Positions 13,791-64,000 of a DNA stretch of 64,000 bases are shown one piece after another. Positions within the stretch are counted from its first letter, which is position 1. The number at the start of each line of letters is the position of its first letter. This DNA is from Pelagomonas calceolata. Lineage: Eukaryota. The stretch is taken from assembly GCA_918797485.1 (NCBI GenBank), contig CAKKNE010000004.1, positions 1,674,001-1,738,000 of the forward strand, read 5' to 3'. The translations under genes and the position numbers were made by a program. The notes below the pieces were generated by a model, which was not told the origin of the DNA, ran no database searches, and saw only the letters and a list, made by a program, of their open reading frames with translations.

Positions 13791-14075
13791 CTAGTTCAGA
13801 ACAAGAAAGAAGAGCTGGTATGTGCTAGTACATGCAGCATCACCCAAATTATACATGACGATGGCCGCACTTCCACTGCTGGCTGTTACGCTAGAAACAC
13901 TGACATAGCCGGTCAAGCACCTAGATTTAATCGTAACCCAGATGATACTTGAAGTAACAATATGCGTATTTGAGAGCGTGATCATTTCAGTGCTACCAGC
14001 ACCAAGTGTGCTTGACTCACTTGTCAAGACACCCCCCATGGTGTTCACAGTAGCGGCAGCACTGGAGACAACCGT
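13791..14075 (-). other. C-terminal ~95-aa all-beta domain of the giant protein, resembling phage structural/tail-fibre C-terminal domains
   Basis: AATVNTMGGVLTSESSTLGAGSTEMITLSNTHIVTSSIIWVTI...YVSVSSVTASSGSAAIVMYNLGDAACTSTYQLFFLVLN. The resemblance is recognised from memory, not from a search. Confidence 0.55.
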
Positions 14076-17000
14076 AGTGGACGCTGTGCACTCAAAGCCG
14101 TGCACGTAGCCAGACGAAAATGTTACCCCTGAGTTGCCACTCAATGTGAGGCCTGTGCTACTTGCAACTGAGATACCGGAGGATGCTATTAGCGATGTCG
14201 TTTGATGTTGACTAGAGATTGAACTAGAAGAGATCGTGAGAACAGCATTCGAGTCCTGTTTCAAGCACACTTGACCATCACCAACAGATCCACGACCAGC
14301 ATTGATGTACGCTCCCCCTCCGGCTACACTACCAATGGTTGAGCCTGCAAATAGATGGACTGAACCACCAGTGCCTGATGTTCCGCTACCAGCAGATAGG
14401 CTGACAAGACCGCTGCAGCCACCAGTTGCTGAACCAGAGCCAATAAGAATCACACCACTGTTACCAATCAGCGCGCTCCCCGAACTGAAGACAAGTTTTC
14501 CACTTGCCCCAGATACACCTGTATTTGCGCTAGTGATACTAATAATACCGGTGCTTGTTGCAGTACCCTCACCCGTGCCACAACACAAATCTCCACCTGT
14601 CTTCTTAGTGCTACGTGCTGCTGCCAGTATCATATTGCCACCCTCTCCAGATGTGCCACTCCCCGTTGATATTAGAATGCGACCAGCCTGACCGGCCACC
14701 GCTGCACCTGTCCCAAAGGAGAGTCCACCACTATTTCCTGTTGTTGCTATACCACTGCTGAAGGCAAGAGGTCCACTCGCACCCACTGCACCTGCATTGG
14801 CGCTCAGAAATACCACGATGCCGCTGCTAGAGGCAGAACCTCCTCCTGAGACTAATTTAGTACTTCCACCCGTTGCTATTGCACTACGGCTGGAAGCAAC
14901 TGACACGAATCCGCCTGTACCGCTTCTTCCGCTACCGACATGAAGCCGCGTTGAACCACCACGTCCGCCTGTACTAGCACCAGTTGCAAGCAACAGAGCA
15001 CCGCTGTTGCCTGCCTTCGACAATCCCGTACTGAAACTCAAGGCCCCACTTGCCCCATTCGCACCTGCGTTCATTGTGAATACTAATATTGCTCCGCTAC
15101 TAGTGGTGGTTCCCTCGCCATTGGAAGCAACCGCAGGGCCACCCGTATTGGCCATGCCACATCCAGCAGATAGAATCAAAATTCCACCTACACCGCTGGA
15201 GCCACTACCAACACTTATCGACACACCACCTGCGGAGCCGCCTGTCGACGATCCTGATTGCCAAAAACAACTACCGCTGTTTCCTTGAATACCATGACCA
15301 GAGCTGAATGCCAGACAACCACTGCTACCAAGTGCCCCTGTATTAGAGCTGATTACTGCTATCACGCCACTGCTGGAGGCTGTACCCTCCGCACCATCAA
15401 TGACAGTAGATCCGCCAGTCGATCTCATAGACCGGCCTGCTACGCATGAAAATGTACTTCCTATTCCGGAATTTCCACTTCCAACGAGCACGTGTATATT
15501 GCCACCTCGACCAGCTGTGGCAGGTGAAGTGCCAATGAGAACAGGGCCACTATTTCCCAGAGAGCTAGATCCAGTGCTAAACACCAAATGTCCGCTCGAC
15601 CCATCTGTTGCCATATTTGCGCTGGATGTGATGATTGACCCACTACTTGTGCTGTCGCCAGGATCATTTGAGATCAAGACAAAGCCGCCCGAGCCTGTTG
15701 CACCATTGCCTCCAGTAAGTGTAACTAGACCACCAATCCCGTGCATGCCACTACCCCCCCCTCCAGTAAGTGAAGTCCTGCCACCTCCGGAACCTTGACC
15801 TCCCGTGACCCCAATAAAACCCCCTATTCCTGAATATCCACTTCCCGCGTAGAGGCTTATCCTGCCAGCAGCGCTACTGGAGACCCCACCTGTCACAACA
15901 TTCATCACACCTGTGTTGCCACCTTTCGCCGATCCCGAGGCGAACCTGAGCGCGCCGCTGGCGCCGGTCGCGCCCGCATTTGCGCTCGAGATGCGGATCG
16001 CGCCGCCGCTCGCCGCGGTGCCCTCGCCGGTCCTGGCCAGGACCGACCCTCCGCTCGTCGCCGCGCTCCTGCCGGAGGCCAGTTGCGTCGACCCGCCGCC
16101 CCCGCTCGTCCCGCTCCCGACGCTCACCGTCGCCGCTCCGCCGCGGCCGGCGGTGCCTGATCCCGAGCCCAGCAGCACCGCGCCAGAGTTGCCGGTCTGC
16201 GACGTTCCGGAGCTGAAGACCAGGCGCCCGCTCGACCCGGCGCCTCCGGCGTTCCCGCTCGCCACGCGCACGGCGCCGCCGCTCGCCGCGCTGCCCTCGC
16301 CGCCCGTCGCCGCGCAGGCGCCTCCGGTCGCCGCGGTGCTCGCGCCACCGCGCGCGCAGACGGCGCCGCCCGCGCCGCTGGTGCCGCTGCCGACCGCCGC
16401 CGAGACCGCGCCGCCCCTCCCGCCGGTCGCGCCGCCAGAGCCAAAGCTCGCGGCCCCGCTGTTCCCGGACTTGGGCGCCCCCGAGGTAAACACCAGGCGC
16501 CCGCTGCCTCCGCTCGCGCCGCCTTTCGCGCTCGCCACCTCCACGGCGCCGCTCGACGCCGCTGTTCCCTCTCCTCCCAGGGCGACTGCGCGTCCTCCGG
16601 TCCCCTTTGCCCGGCCCCGACCGCGTCGCGGCCCGCGACGAGGGCCAGGCCACCTCCGGCCCCGGACGTCCCGCTGCCCGCGGTCGCAACCCGCGACCGC
16701 CGCGGCCCGCCGTCGCCGTTCGGAGCCCAGGACCGCGCCGCCGCTGTTGCCCGTCGCGCCCGGTGCCCGAGCTGAACGCCAGACGTCCGCTACTACCGCC
16801 GCCGCCAGCGTTCGCGCGCGCGCACGCGCACGACGCCGCTGCTCGTCCCGGCTCCGCGGCCCGAGGCCACGCCAGCGCCGCCGCCGGTCGCTTCCGTGCT
16901 GGACCCGGCTTGCAACACAAGGACGCCGCCGGCAGAGCTCGTCCGCTCCCGATCACGACTCGCACCGCGCCGCCGCGACCAGCGGTCGACGCGCCCGCCC

Positions 17001-62000: not shown

Positions 62001-64000
62001 CGCTCACGCTTGCCGCGCCCCCGCGGCCCACCGTCGCCGGTCCCGGCCCGACGCACAGCCGCCCGCTGTTTCCTGCCTTGCTCGACCCGGAGCTAAAGCA
62101 CAGCCGCCCACTCGACCCCCCGGCGCCAGCGTTGGCCGCCGAGATGATTGCGATCCCAGAGCTCGCCGACGCGCTCGCTCCGCTCGTCGCACTCAGGACT
62201 CCACCCGACGCAACGTCGCTGCGTCCAGACAACAGGCTCAACGCGCCCCCAAGCCCACTCGTCCCGCTGCCGACGCTCGCGCTCGCGCGTCCGCCCCGGC
62301 CGCCGGTCGCCGCGCCGGACCCGACCCGGACGCTCCCGCTGTTGCCAGAGGTCGACGCTCCGGCGCTGAACACTAGTCGCCCGCTCGCGGCGCCCGCGCC
62401 AGCGTTAGACGTGCCGATACGCAGCGCCCCGCCGCTGCCCGTCGTCCCCTCCCCGGAGCCCGCGCGGAGGGTACCGCCCGTGAGCGTCGAGCTTCGACCG
62501 GACTCCAGGCTCAAGCCACCTCCAGACCCGCTCGTCCCGCTGCCCGCGCCCAGCCGAGTCGCGCCGCCTCGCCCCGACGAGGCCGCGCCAGACCCGACGA
62601 GCAGCGCGCCGCTGTTGCCTTCCTTGGACGAGCCTGAGCTGAACACCAGCTGGCTGCTCGCTCCGCCGCCGCCGCCGTTCGCCGTGCGAACGTACACCGC
62701 GCCGCCGCTTGTGGCCGTCCCTTCGCCCGTCTCGACGCAGACGCCGCCGCCCGTCGTCCCGGTGCTTCTCCCCGCGCCCAGCGACGTCGAGCCACCCAAA
62801 CCGCTCGTTCCACTACCGACGGAGACGCGCGCTACTCCGGCCCGCCCTCCAACGCTCGGTCCAGAGCCGAGGGCAACCGCTCCACTGTTCCCGTCCTTGG
62901 ACGACCCGGAGCTAAATGCCAACCGGCCGCCCGACCCACTCGCTCCGCTGTTTGTCGACCCGAGACTGAGATACCCGCTGCTTGAACAGGTGCCCTCGCT
63001 TCCCTCTAGGAAAAGCGCGCCCCCTGATGTCAAGATGCCGCGTCCAGTGCACAAATGGACGGACGAACCACTTTCAGTATCACTACTGCTACCCGCACTG
63101 ATACATACTAGTCCAGCTTGCCCACTTGACGCAGCTCCTGCAGATATGAGTACTGCTCCAATGTTGCCTGATTGAGAAGATCCCGAGCTGAACGTCAGCC
63201 TACCACTCGAACCCTGCACGCCAGAGTTACAGCCCTTGACAGTAACGGCACCACTGCTCACCGAACTGCCTTCCCCTGAAGCTATGTTGGTAAAACCTCC
63301 ACTACTAACGGCGCTTTGACCCGAGTCAATGCGAATGTGAGCTGCTGAACCACTAGAGCCGCTCCCAGCTTCTATACCCATTGTTCCCCCATGACCACCA
63401 GACGCTGTTCCGGTACCAAGTGTGAGCCATCCAGAGTTCCCTGCCATACTAGAACCAGTACTGAAAGTAAGCCTCCCGCTGCTGCCGCCAACACCGCCGT
63501 TTGTGACCTTGACTGTGATAGATCCACTGCTTGTTACGGTGCCTTCTCCTGCACTTACACTGAGCAACCCACCGCTTAATGCGACGGCACGACCAGGGAG
63601 AGCAAGGATGCCTCCCCCTAGCGCGCTGGTGCCAGTTCCGACGCTGATGAAAACATTATTGCCACGCCCCTCGGTCGCAGCCCCGGATCCAATTTCAACT
63701 GCCCCCGTGTTTCCGAGCCCCGCTGAACCTGAGCTATATGCAAGCCGACCACTGATACCCCCAACCCCCCCATTTGTTGTCGACACAAAAATGCTGCCAC
63801 TACTGCTCGTTGCTCCAAATCTACTTGAGATTGACAGGTCGCCACCGCTCTGTAATTGACTCAAACCAGCACACATCTCTAAACTATTCGATTTGCCACT
63901 CATGCTTTTGCCTATATTAACGGACACTATGCCACCTTGGCCATTCTCCACACTCCCAGAGGAACACGCAACAAGGCCACTGTTACCGTTTCGACAGGAT
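13791..64000 (-). CDS. Giant Gly/Ser/Ala/Thr-rich repeat protein (predicted beta-helical fibre, >16,000 aa if intact), 5' end beyond the window, apparently intronless; assembly-level frameshifts inside the GC-rich arrays
   Basis: Minus-strand ORF fragments (13791-16544, 19152-21416, 34895-36424, 44600-46684, 47570-50320, 56990-59428, 60217-63951 and others) all carry the same 15-residue G-x-phi-x-phi-x-x-G register, e.g. GRLVFSSGTSQTGNS/GAVLLGSGSGTAGRG. They hand over to each other at small indels with no intervening non-repeat DNA. The frame stays open to base 64000 (SCRNGNSGLVACSSGSVENGQGG). The terminal stop TAG is at 13791-13793 after YQLFFLVLN. Confidence 0.85.
15915..46015 (-). repeat. 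Coding tandem array A: 1107-bp unit (369 aa = 91+91+91+96), about 27 near-identical, extremely GC-rich copies
   Basis: The marker AGGTAAACAC occurs at 19781 and 20888, 1107 bp apart in clean copies. The marker GCATTTGCGCTCGAGATGCGG (or a single-indel variant) recurs 28 times from ~15977 to ~45841 at ~1.1-kb spacing. Confidence 0.97.
46016..62999 (-). repeat. Coding tandem array B: units of 8 or 9 distinct 273-bp modules (~2.18 and ~2.45 kb), with module shuffling
   Basis: The marker TACAAACAGCACCCC occurs at about 46400, 49649, 52096, 54531, 56701, 59147 and 61324. The spacings of about 3249, 2447, 2435, 2170, 2446 and 2177 are close to 12, 9, 9, 8, 9 and 8 times 273 bp. Confidence 0.93.
48140..49620 (-). 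repeat. Local direct duplication with 813-bp period (three modules) inside the giant gene; part of it also occurs at 46016-46375
   Basis: CCGCTCCGACCACCTGACGCGGTGCCCGAGTCAAGC occurs at 48168 and 48981. The encoded block GRITIGVGISTKGRGG...GLIALDSGTASGGRSG appears twice in ORF 47570-50320. Confidence 0.9.

What the first reader, a model, noticed from the sequence alone, without database searches (positions are those of the whole stretch)
13791..64000. A >50-kb single-exon gene for a giant beta-helical, tail-fibre-like protein in a eukaryote
Seen: 50,210 bp of continuous minus-strand coding repeat, about 16,700 codons with the N-terminus still outside the window. That is roughly 180 modules of 91 aa, or about 1,100 coils, with no visible intron although nearby genes are intron-dense. 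Each coil is a short alternating hydrophobic strand plus a Gly/Ser loop. Known: such strand-plus-glycine-turn repeats build beta-solenoids and trimeric beta-helices in phage fibres and bacterial adhesins. Inference: at ~0.48 nm rise per coil this would be a rod of about half a micrometre or more, a candidate surface filament, adhesin, virus decoy or extrusome component. Automated annotation would likely break it into dozens of PE-PGRS-like or Pro-rich fragments.
Basis: partly seen in the sequence, partly recalled or inferred. Interest (0 to 1): 0.88.

Follow-up and report, generated by a model that had tools for sequence, protein, structure and literature searches.

The report
Giant three-stranded algal fibre gene
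A tiny marine alga transcribes a gene of more than 50 kb whose frame breaks are likely sequencing errors, and which would encode over 16,600 amino acids predicted to wind three chains into a phage-tail-like fibre at least half a micrometre long, likely displayed outside the cell.

Summary
As assembled, the region is not one reading frame. It has about 192 frame breaks, all inside two tandem arrays and none in the 3.3 kb of single-copy coding DNA. Short-read data disagree with the assembly at six indels in one array copy; applying them gives an open 1,107-bp unit, so the breaks are most likely long-read errors. Stranded polyA RNA covers both ends of the region with no intron joints. The product would be about 180 modules of 91 aa (six ~15-aa Gly/Ser strand-loop repeats each), ending in a phage-fibre-tip-like beta-sandwich. 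A repeat monomer does not fold (pLDDT 35). A trimer of the last 236 aa is predicted with an interface along nearly the whole shaft (score 0.73, best control 0.01), favouring an intertwined three-chain fibre over a single-chain solenoid. The organism is a pelagophyte, likely Pelagomonas calceolata. A published annotation lists unannotated models and an ICA chaperone model there. The closest known system is the TLP-12 glycofibril; this is not a member. The scan noted the same kind of gene before on other pieces of this genome and in other genomes. The N-terminus, location and function are untested.

The parts
12800..13790 (-). 3' untranslated region, at least 990 nt; runs past 12800
   Evidence: Stranded polyA RNA continuous with the coding region, depth rising towards 12800, no step or intron joint
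13791..14090 (-). Stop codon and C-terminal knob: ~100-aa beta-sandwich like phage fibre tips and H-type lectins
   Evidence: AF2 pLDDT 92.5; phrog_18251 E 1.5e-4; BFVD TM 0.7-0.8 to phage proteins; VIA Z 6-7 to tailspike tips and H-type lectins
14091..14285 (-). Neck of short Ser/Thr-rich strands between shaft and knob (boundaries approximate)
   Evidence: Shared with homologues P0001-P0034; inside the predicted trimer interface
14286..15933 (-). Single-copy, low-GC shaft modules (about 5.5 modules, GC3 0.33-0.41), frame intact
   Evidence: 0 frame breaks; identical in contigs of runs X1 and X5; gapless, 646 of 719 aa identical in relative L003
15934..45796 (-). Array A: 27 tandem copies of a 4-module unit, 1,107 bp / 369 aa once read-supported indels are applied; 79% GC
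   Evidence: 141 inferred frame breaks in 15931-46000
45797..46093 (-). In-frame hybrid module joining array B to array A
   Evidence: Frame-intact stretch 45457-46706; module read
46094..62985 (-). Array B: about 7 copies of a unit of 8-12 modules (2.17, 2.44 and 3.26 kb spacings), about 62 modules; 70% GC
   Evidence: the copy at 60850-63000 has no read-supported indel
62986..64000 (-). Single-copy shaft modules, open to the window edge; the sequence forks at 63692 in other isolates or alleles
   Evidence: 0 frame breaks; sense RNA 3-16x; an 18,559-letter contig of run X5 leaves the window sequence at 63692

Best explanation
This is a transcribed gene whose frame breaks are likely long-read errors in its tandem arrays, and whose product of more than 16,600 residues is predicted to form an intertwined three-chain beta fibre capped by a phage-fibre-tip-like knob, likely displayed outside the cell. 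Shown: transcription at both ends, the 91-aa/15-aa repeat design, protein-level conservation, and an open majority unit in array A. Predicted: the knob fold and the homotrimer. Inferred: each ~15-aa repeat gives one strand whose alternating hydrophobic residues fill the three-fold core while the Gly/Ser loop faces out. About 1,080 repeats then give 0.5 micrometre at 0.48 nm each, or about 1 micrometre at the 0.96 nm rise of TLP-12. The chain likely enters the secretory pathway, its Ser/Thr loops are likely O-glycosylated, and the knob likely registers the three chains and binds sugars at the far tip, as an adhesive or protective surface filament. Shaft length is set by expansion of the tandem arrays. 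My odds by step: intact gene 0.9, three-chain beta fibre 0.8, extracellular 0.75, sugar-binding tip 0.4.
For: Errors, not decay: 192 of 192 breaks are in arrays. 213 of 255 indel events in 27 array-A copies are single-base, many at short G or C runs. Contigs of X1 and X5 both carry the same six indels against the window copy, and RNA reads show two of them well; applying them gives 1,107 bp with 0 stops. One deletion sits in 15 of 27 assembled copies, yet the short-read contigs have the base at full depth. Transcription: sense RNA 116-386x over 13794-15781 and 3-16x over 63076-64000; 15 RNA reads cross the array-A copy-to-copy joint. Selection: identity among 20 clean modules is 0.60/0.64/0.34 by codon position. 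Relative L003 has 184 of 2,160 bases and 73 of 719 residues different, no indel, and similarity collapses after the stop. Structure: trimer score 0.73, best of 3 controls 0.01; runs agree in at least 94% of contacts; partner pLDDT at least 81; 1,031-1,078 contacts covering most of residues 1-141. In the tool's calibration the mark was reached by 21 of 30 proteins solved as pairs and 0 of 23 single chains (eukaryotes 17 of 29 and 0 of 30). Tip: 66 of 90 aligned relatives match phrog_18251, 35 BFVD matches at E<=0.001. Homologues P0130 and P0133 carry the same repeats behind an N-terminal hydrophobic stretch read by eye.
Against: No peptide, image or full-length read. A true frameshift in a single copy (about 4% of array-A reads, 14% of array-B reads) would fall under the 15% listing limit. 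RNA depth in array A is only 0.2-80x for 27 collapsed copies, below the 5' end per copy, and has to be explained by 79% GC; antisense reads reach about 40% there in X21. The trimer test covered one module plus neck and knob, gave no fold geometry, used three copies (outside the calibration) and may pass from memory of phage fibres. The best VIA Z is 7.3, within the range the tool calls common, so the lectin link is weak. No signal peptide or anchor lies in the window. Recurrent substitutions among array-A copies were only mildly synonymous-rich (12 of 29 against 30% expected).
Confidence: 0.6

Rival explanations
1. The same three-chain fibre, but a part of the flagellar hair (terminal filament or length ruler of the tubular mastigoneme) and not a general surface adhesin.
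For: Ochromonas hairs end in one to three terminal filaments and are built in the ER and Golgi (PMC2108286, abstract). Relatives occur in Aureococcus and the diatom Cyclotella, and an oomycete-led cluster resembles the repeats of homologue P0130.
Against: Another look-alike cluster is led by Chlorophyta (phylum known for 11 of 331 members). No link to mastigoneme proteins appeared in searches. No localisation data.
Confidence: 0.15
2. The arrays are a decaying coding satellite with real frameshifts, and the working product is a short protein of about 700 aa transcribed from near 15.8 kb.
For: RNA depth falls sharply at 15782-15923. Single-copy breaks cannot be excluded.
Against: The fall coincides with the GC jump from 52% to 79%. 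No cluster of molecule starts was reported there. Sense RNA is present 50 kb upstream and across copy joints. The majority unit is open, the frame-intact array-B copy has no read-supported indel, and the single-copy 5' part is intact.
Confidence: 0.1
3. The repeats form a single-chain beta-solenoid, a polyglycine-II sandwich (PE-PGRS-like) or a disordered gel, not an intertwined trimer.
For: The low AF2 monomer confidence (pLDDT 35, 18-row alignment of the gene's own modules) is also what disorder would give. Gly is 29%.
Against: A conserved 15-aa alternating hydrophobic pattern with almost no indels between modules. Trimer pLDDT is 81-84 with nearly all shaft residues in the interface.
Confidence: 0.1
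4. An inserted viral fibre gene (endogenous phage or giant-virus element) with no role for the alga.
For: The tip's closest predicted folds are phage and giant-virus proteins. P0131, on a 375-kb contig of unknown kind, has similar repeats.
Against: The neighbours on the 3' side are a bromodomain protein, an intron-bearing kinase and ATG4. The gene is polyadenylated, conserved in a relative in another gene context and has homologues in other algae. No match in viral contigs or annotated phages for the repeats. The 5' side was not seen.
Confidence: 0.05

Closest known systems
TLP-12 glycofibril and its candidate proteins in Amoebophrya and other alveolates (A0A8J1ZHD7, 19,853 aa; bioRxiv 10.1101/2025.09.30.679562)
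   Same: Eukaryotic giant protein of about 20,000 residues; short Gly/Ser repeats; three chains interwoven into a beta stem; Ser/Thr available for O-glycans; function unknown.
   Different: TLP-12 has 12-aa repeats and its candidates end in an ICA domain. This protein has ~15-aa repeats in a 91-aa module, ends in a beta-sandwich knob, and is from a stramenopile. Its trimer is predicted, not solved, and glycosylation is untested.
Phage tail fibres and tailspikes with triple beta-helix shafts and C-terminal knobs (phrog_18251; tips of K64-1 depolymerase 9k4a, LKA1 gp49 4ru4, R1 pyocin fibre 6cxb)
   Same: Tip domain matches by profile and predicted fold; predicted homotrimer; strand-and-glycine-loop shaft.
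   Different: Nuclear gene of an alga, more than ten times the length of the phage matches listed (86-1,139 aa), built by tandem higher-order arrays. No catalytic beta-helix. The shaft repeat matches no Pfam or PHROG family, solved sequence or annotated phage.
H-type lectins (discoidin I 2w94, Helix pomatia agglutinin 2ccv, SLL-2 3wmp)
   Same: Beta-sandwich of similar size, Z 6.6-7.2, rmsd 2.5-4.3, 81-93 residues aligned; these lectins are trimers (recalled).
   Different: 6-12% identity, no Pfam match, sugar site not examined; Z is within the common range.
Uncharacterised protist repeat proteins (Aureococcus AURANDRAFT_66637, Cyclotella CCRYP_000987, P0130, P0133)
   Same: Share the neck and knob, or the 91-aa-type module.
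   Different: Deposited as fragments or proteins of 135-1,324 aa; P0130 and P0133 end in a different tip; none has a function.

Membership tests
TLP-12 type glycofibril | Dodecapeptide repeat GSxxSx7 | tested here: not met
   The period is 91 aa made of six ~15-aa repeats
TLP-12 type glycofibril | ICA chaperone domain at the C-terminus | tested here: not met
   The C-terminus is a beta-sandwich knob; no Pfam match in the last 937 aa. An ICA model lies further along the locus in a published table, link to this frame untested
TLP-12 type glycofibril | Three chains interwoven into a beta stem | tested here: inconclusive
   Homotrimer predicted, 0.73 against 0.01, interface along most of residues 1-141; geometry not returned
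TLP-12 type glycofibril | Dense O-glycan coat on Ser/Thr | not testable with these tools
   Ser 17.5% and Thr 7.6% allow it; no data
Phage tail fibre / tailspike | C-terminal fibre-tip domain | tested here: met
   phrog_18251 E 1.5e-4 for the window's tip and 66 of 90 relatives; BFVD TM 0.7-0.8; one relative lies in the tail-gene region of cyanophage S-CBS4 (weak, E 3e-3). phrog_18251 itself has no assigned function
Phage tail fibre / tailspike | Encoded in a virion-gene module of a phage or virus | tested here: not met
   Neighbours are bromodomain, kinase and ATG4 genes; polyA transcript
H-type lectin | Fold | tested here: inconclusive
   VIA Z 6.6-7.2, tied with tailspike tips, under the tool's Z 8 caution
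H-type lectin | GalNAc-binding site between subunits | not tested
   Site residues were not mapped
PE-PGRS proteins | N-terminal PE domain and GGxGGx repeats in a mycobacterium | tested here: not met
   Eukaryotic locus; no Pfam match in the shaft; repeat is a 15-aa strand-loop. N-terminus not seen
Single-chain beta-solenoid adhesin | Monomer folds as a stacked coil | tested here: inconclusive
   AF2 monomer pLDDT 35, pTM 0.26 with a shallow alignment

The most novel reading that the evidence does not exclude
One of the most abundant open-ocean picoalgae builds, from a single titin-scale chain of 20,000 residues or more, a micrometre-scale glycosylated triple beta-helix fibre with a sugar-binding knob. 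A phage-type self-cleaving chaperone upstream of the shaft clamps three chains in register early, so the fibre zips from N to C during synthesis, the reverse of phage fibres. Copy number of the tandem arrays tunes fibre length between strains.
Probability: 0.3. Interest if true: 0.82.

Novelty: new variant of a known kind. Interest (0 to 1): 0.62.

Why it matters
If right, a cell under 2 micrometres makes a filament comparable to its own radius from one gene that long-read errors and gene callers have hidden as unannotated scraps. It supplies a gene, in a cultured alga, for a class of giant three-chain fibres so far seen as an orphan cryo-EM density (TLP-12) with alveolate candidates. That makes surface fibrils, adhesion, grazing and virus contact in an abundant ocean eukaryote directly testable. 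It also poses a folding problem: how three chains of 1.4 MDa or more are kept in register. The arrays give a within-gene contrast of GC3 0.9 against 0.35 inside a low-GC region, which bears on why those regions are GC-poor.

Tried and rejected
No whole genome was held, so the DNA beyond 64000 could not be read; scans for it in viral contigs and genome contigs found nothing. Word-indexed protein searches with the last 140 aa (longer proteins) and with the 5' modules found no hit; a profile found 4, one of which (P0132) looks like a frameshifted copy of this gene. Pfam and PHROG give nothing for the shaft. Solved-structure sequence searches gave only E>0.1 rows for tip and shaft. Foldseek on PDB gave no match at E<=0.001. 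A plain majority consensus of array A came out at 1,106 bp and frameshifted, because some errors recur in most copies; it was rejected in favour of the read-supported unit. An hmm domain count returned 0 through a script fault and was not used. Alignments A2, A4 and A7 put repeat rows over the knob and were not used for folding. A scripted dN/dS could not be run; the figure given is a hand estimate. Programmed frameshifting or RNA editing was rejected as the cause of the breaks, because DNA contigs already carry the open form. Paper searches turned up no description of this gene; the library lacks most subscription journals, bioRxiv supplements were closed, and file 4 of PMC9481584 was cut and file 5 unreadable, so a mention there cannot be excluded.
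Full report
OBSERVATION. From the stop at 13791-13793 to the window edge the minus strand encodes a Gly/Ser/Ala/Thr-rich repeat. As assembled it is not one frame: the longest open stretch in the coding phase is 1,260 codons, and a frame-aware decoder gives 16,637 codons with 192 frame changes and one stop, the terminal one. The unit is a 91-aa module of six ~15-aa repeats, each a short alternating hydrophobic strand followed by a Gly/Ser loop. 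About 180 modules and 1,080 repeats lie in the window (my arithmetic). Most of the length is two recent arrays: array A, 27 copies of a 4-module unit at 15934-45796, 79% GC, and array B, about 7 copies of 8-12 modules at 46094-62985, 70% GC. Single-copy coding DNA remains at both ends.

ARE THE BREAKS REAL? Most likely not. All 192 lie in multi-copy DNA (46,886 bp) and none in 3,324 bp of single-copy coding DNA. Against a read-corrected unit the 27 array-A copies show 255 indel events, 213 of them single-base, 100 of 140 distinct events seen once, and the recurrent ones mostly at short G or C runs. Contigs of two DNA runs (X1, which may be the source of the window and is then not independent, and X5) carry the same six indels against the terminal copy. 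RNA reads show two of them well (33 of 58 and 47 of 53 reads in X21) and two in 2 of 2 reads. Applying them gives 1,107 bp, 369 codons, no stop, modules of 96, 91, 91 and 91 aa. One deletion is present in 15 of 27 assembled copies, yet both contigs hold the base at full depth, which points to a systematic long-read error. The frame-intact array-B copy has no read-supported indel in 4 of 4 runs. Limit: a true break in one copy would be under the 15% listing limit, so an open frame through every copy is inferred, not shown. The array itself is real: X5 has a circular unit at depth 268 against 14.3 for single-copy DNA, a rough 19-fold; the tool warns that this is no copy number.

EXPRESSION AND SELECTION. 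Stranded polyA reads of one sample (X21, X22, X24) show a minus-strand transcript: 116-386x over 13794-15781, a 3' UTR of at least 990 nt, 3-16x over 63076-64000, 15 reads across the array-A copy joint, and no intron-type joint in either stretch laid. I laid 7.4 kb of the 51 kb. Against the reading, depth in array A is only 0.2-80x for 27 collapsed copies and antisense reads are present there; the drop coincides with the GC jump, but a shorter transcript is not excluded. The 3' stretch is held by 20 of 24 listed runs from 13 studies, six of them on record as RNA. Twenty clean modules are 60/64/34% identical at codon positions 1/2/3. A metagenome relative (L003, 1 of 3 loci) differs at 184 of 2,160 bases and 73 of 719 residues with no indel, and similarity collapses just after the stop; my hand estimate of dN/dS is 0.3-0.4.

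ORGANISM AND ANNOTATION. The neighbours are a bromodomain gene, an intron-bearing kinase and ATG4. Named relatives are from Aureococcus anophagefferens and Cyclotella cryptica. A published Pelagomonas calceolata table (PMC9481584, supplementary file 4, rows read) lists bromodomain, AGC kinase and ATG4 in this order, then six unannotated models, one model with an intramolecular chaperone (ICA) domain (Pca_4p09010), and four more unannotated models. The species is therefore likely P. calceolata, and the locus is annotated as scraps. The table has no coordinates, so I cannot show that the ICA model is in this frame. The same paper describes low-GC, intron-richer centromeric regions (passages; supplementary note 4); the flanks here fit that (inference).

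STRUCTURE. The last ~100 aa fold confidently as a beta-sandwich (pLDDT 92.5). A search of 1.84 billion representatives gave 109 relatives, nearly all with the domain at their C-terminus; 66 of the 90 aligned sequences match phrog_18251 and 3 match K1-lyase_C weakly. Predicted viral structures give 35 matches at E<=0.001, mostly phage and some giant-virus proteins, TM up to 0.81. Solved structures give only Z 6-7, shared by tailspike and pyocin fibre tips and H-type lectins. Four modules as a monomer do not fold (pLDDT 35). Three copies of the last 236 aa score 0.73, best of 3 controls 0.01; runs agree in at least 94% of contacts, partner pLDDT is at least 81, and 1,031-1,078 contacts cover most of residues 1-141 plus the knob. 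The mark was reached by 21 of 30 proteins solved as pairs and 0 of 23 single chains (eukaryotes 17 of 29 and 0 of 30, but 1 of 7 without an older solved relative); the calibration held two copies, and a pass may come from memory of phage fibres. An interface that takes in nearly every shaft residue is what interwoven chains give, so I infer a triple beta-helix type shaft; the tool returned no geometry.

MECHANISM. Best reading (0.6): a secreted or membrane-anchored homotrimeric fibre. Each repeat lends one strand to a three-fold hydrophobic core, Gly/Ser loops face out and are likely O-glycosylated, and the knob sits at the far tip, registers the chains and may bind sugars. The window's part would be 0.5 micrometre long at 0.48 nm per repeat (standard strand spacing, recalled) or about 1 micrometre at the TLP-12 rise, and about 1.4 MDa per chain (from the composition). 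Secretion rests on homologues P0130 and P0133, which have the same modules (hhalign 99.4%) behind an N-terminal hydrophobic stretch seen by eye. Rivals: flagellar-hair component (0.15), decayed satellite with a short product (0.1), solenoid or disorder (0.1), idle viral insert (0.05).

COMPARISON WITH WHAT IS KNOWN. The nearest described system is TLP-12 (bioRxiv 10.1101/2025.09.30.679562; first two of five text parts, passages and discussion read; supplements closed): an interwoven trimer of glycosylated 12-aa repeats, with ~20,000-residue alveolate candidates ending in an ICA domain, function unknown. This gene likely works like it but fails two defining features (period, C-terminal ICA). 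It has a phage-type tip but is not a virion gene. I found no description of it in nine paper searches or in passages of a pelagophyte pangenome preprint (10.1101/2024.10.30.620910); PMC2108286 was seen as abstract only. Earlier notes of this scan describe the same kind of gene on other pieces of this genome (e1-10420671, e1-10420672; possibly this very gene) and in other genomes (e1-7307836, e1-9897740). They gave me the TLP-12 and ICA leads and are not counted as support.

VERDICT. A real, transcribed, titin-scale fibre gene hidden by assembly error; a new variant of a known kind. Interest 0.62. What remains open: the N-terminus, an open frame in every copy, the protein itself, its location and its function.

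Noticed in passing
window 13794-64000: GC3 is 0.33-0.41 in the single-copy C-terminal modules, 0.58-0.85 in array B and 0.86-0.93 in array A, inside a region of 45-55% GC. This fits GC-biased conversion within tandem arrays in an otherwise low-recombination, centromere-type region (inference).
   Followed up: partly
window 63692: The sequence forks. Run X5 continues in an 18,559-letter single-copy contig with different DNA whose first 30 letters read in the same module register by hand; X9 and RNA run X24 show both forms. The alternative is not in the window. Allelic or strain difference in module content.
   Followed up: partly
window 16324-16847: RNA reads and an X5 contig (depth 88.9 against 14.3 single-copy) carry a related module variant absent from the window, which suggests another multi-copy array upstream or in a paralogue.
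   Followed up: partly
window 15924-17050 and 60850-63075: Antisense RNA reads occur over the arrays (up to about 40% in X21) but are near zero in the single-copy 3' part.
   Followed up: no
window 1-10296: Bromodomain gene, intron-bearing AGC-type kinase and ATG4 protease, in the same order as Pca_4p08850, 08870 and 08890 of a published Pelagomonas calceolata table.
   Followed up: yes
   Followed up: no
L003 4121-10914: The relative at 90% identity has other genes downstream of the fibre gene (long minus-strand frames, none resembling ATG4 by eye), so gene order is not kept.
   Followed up: no
P0033, P0041: The same knob ends other proteins with unrelated N-terminal parts, P0033 with an N-terminal hydrophobic stretch, so the tip looks like a mobile module in protists.
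   Followed up: no
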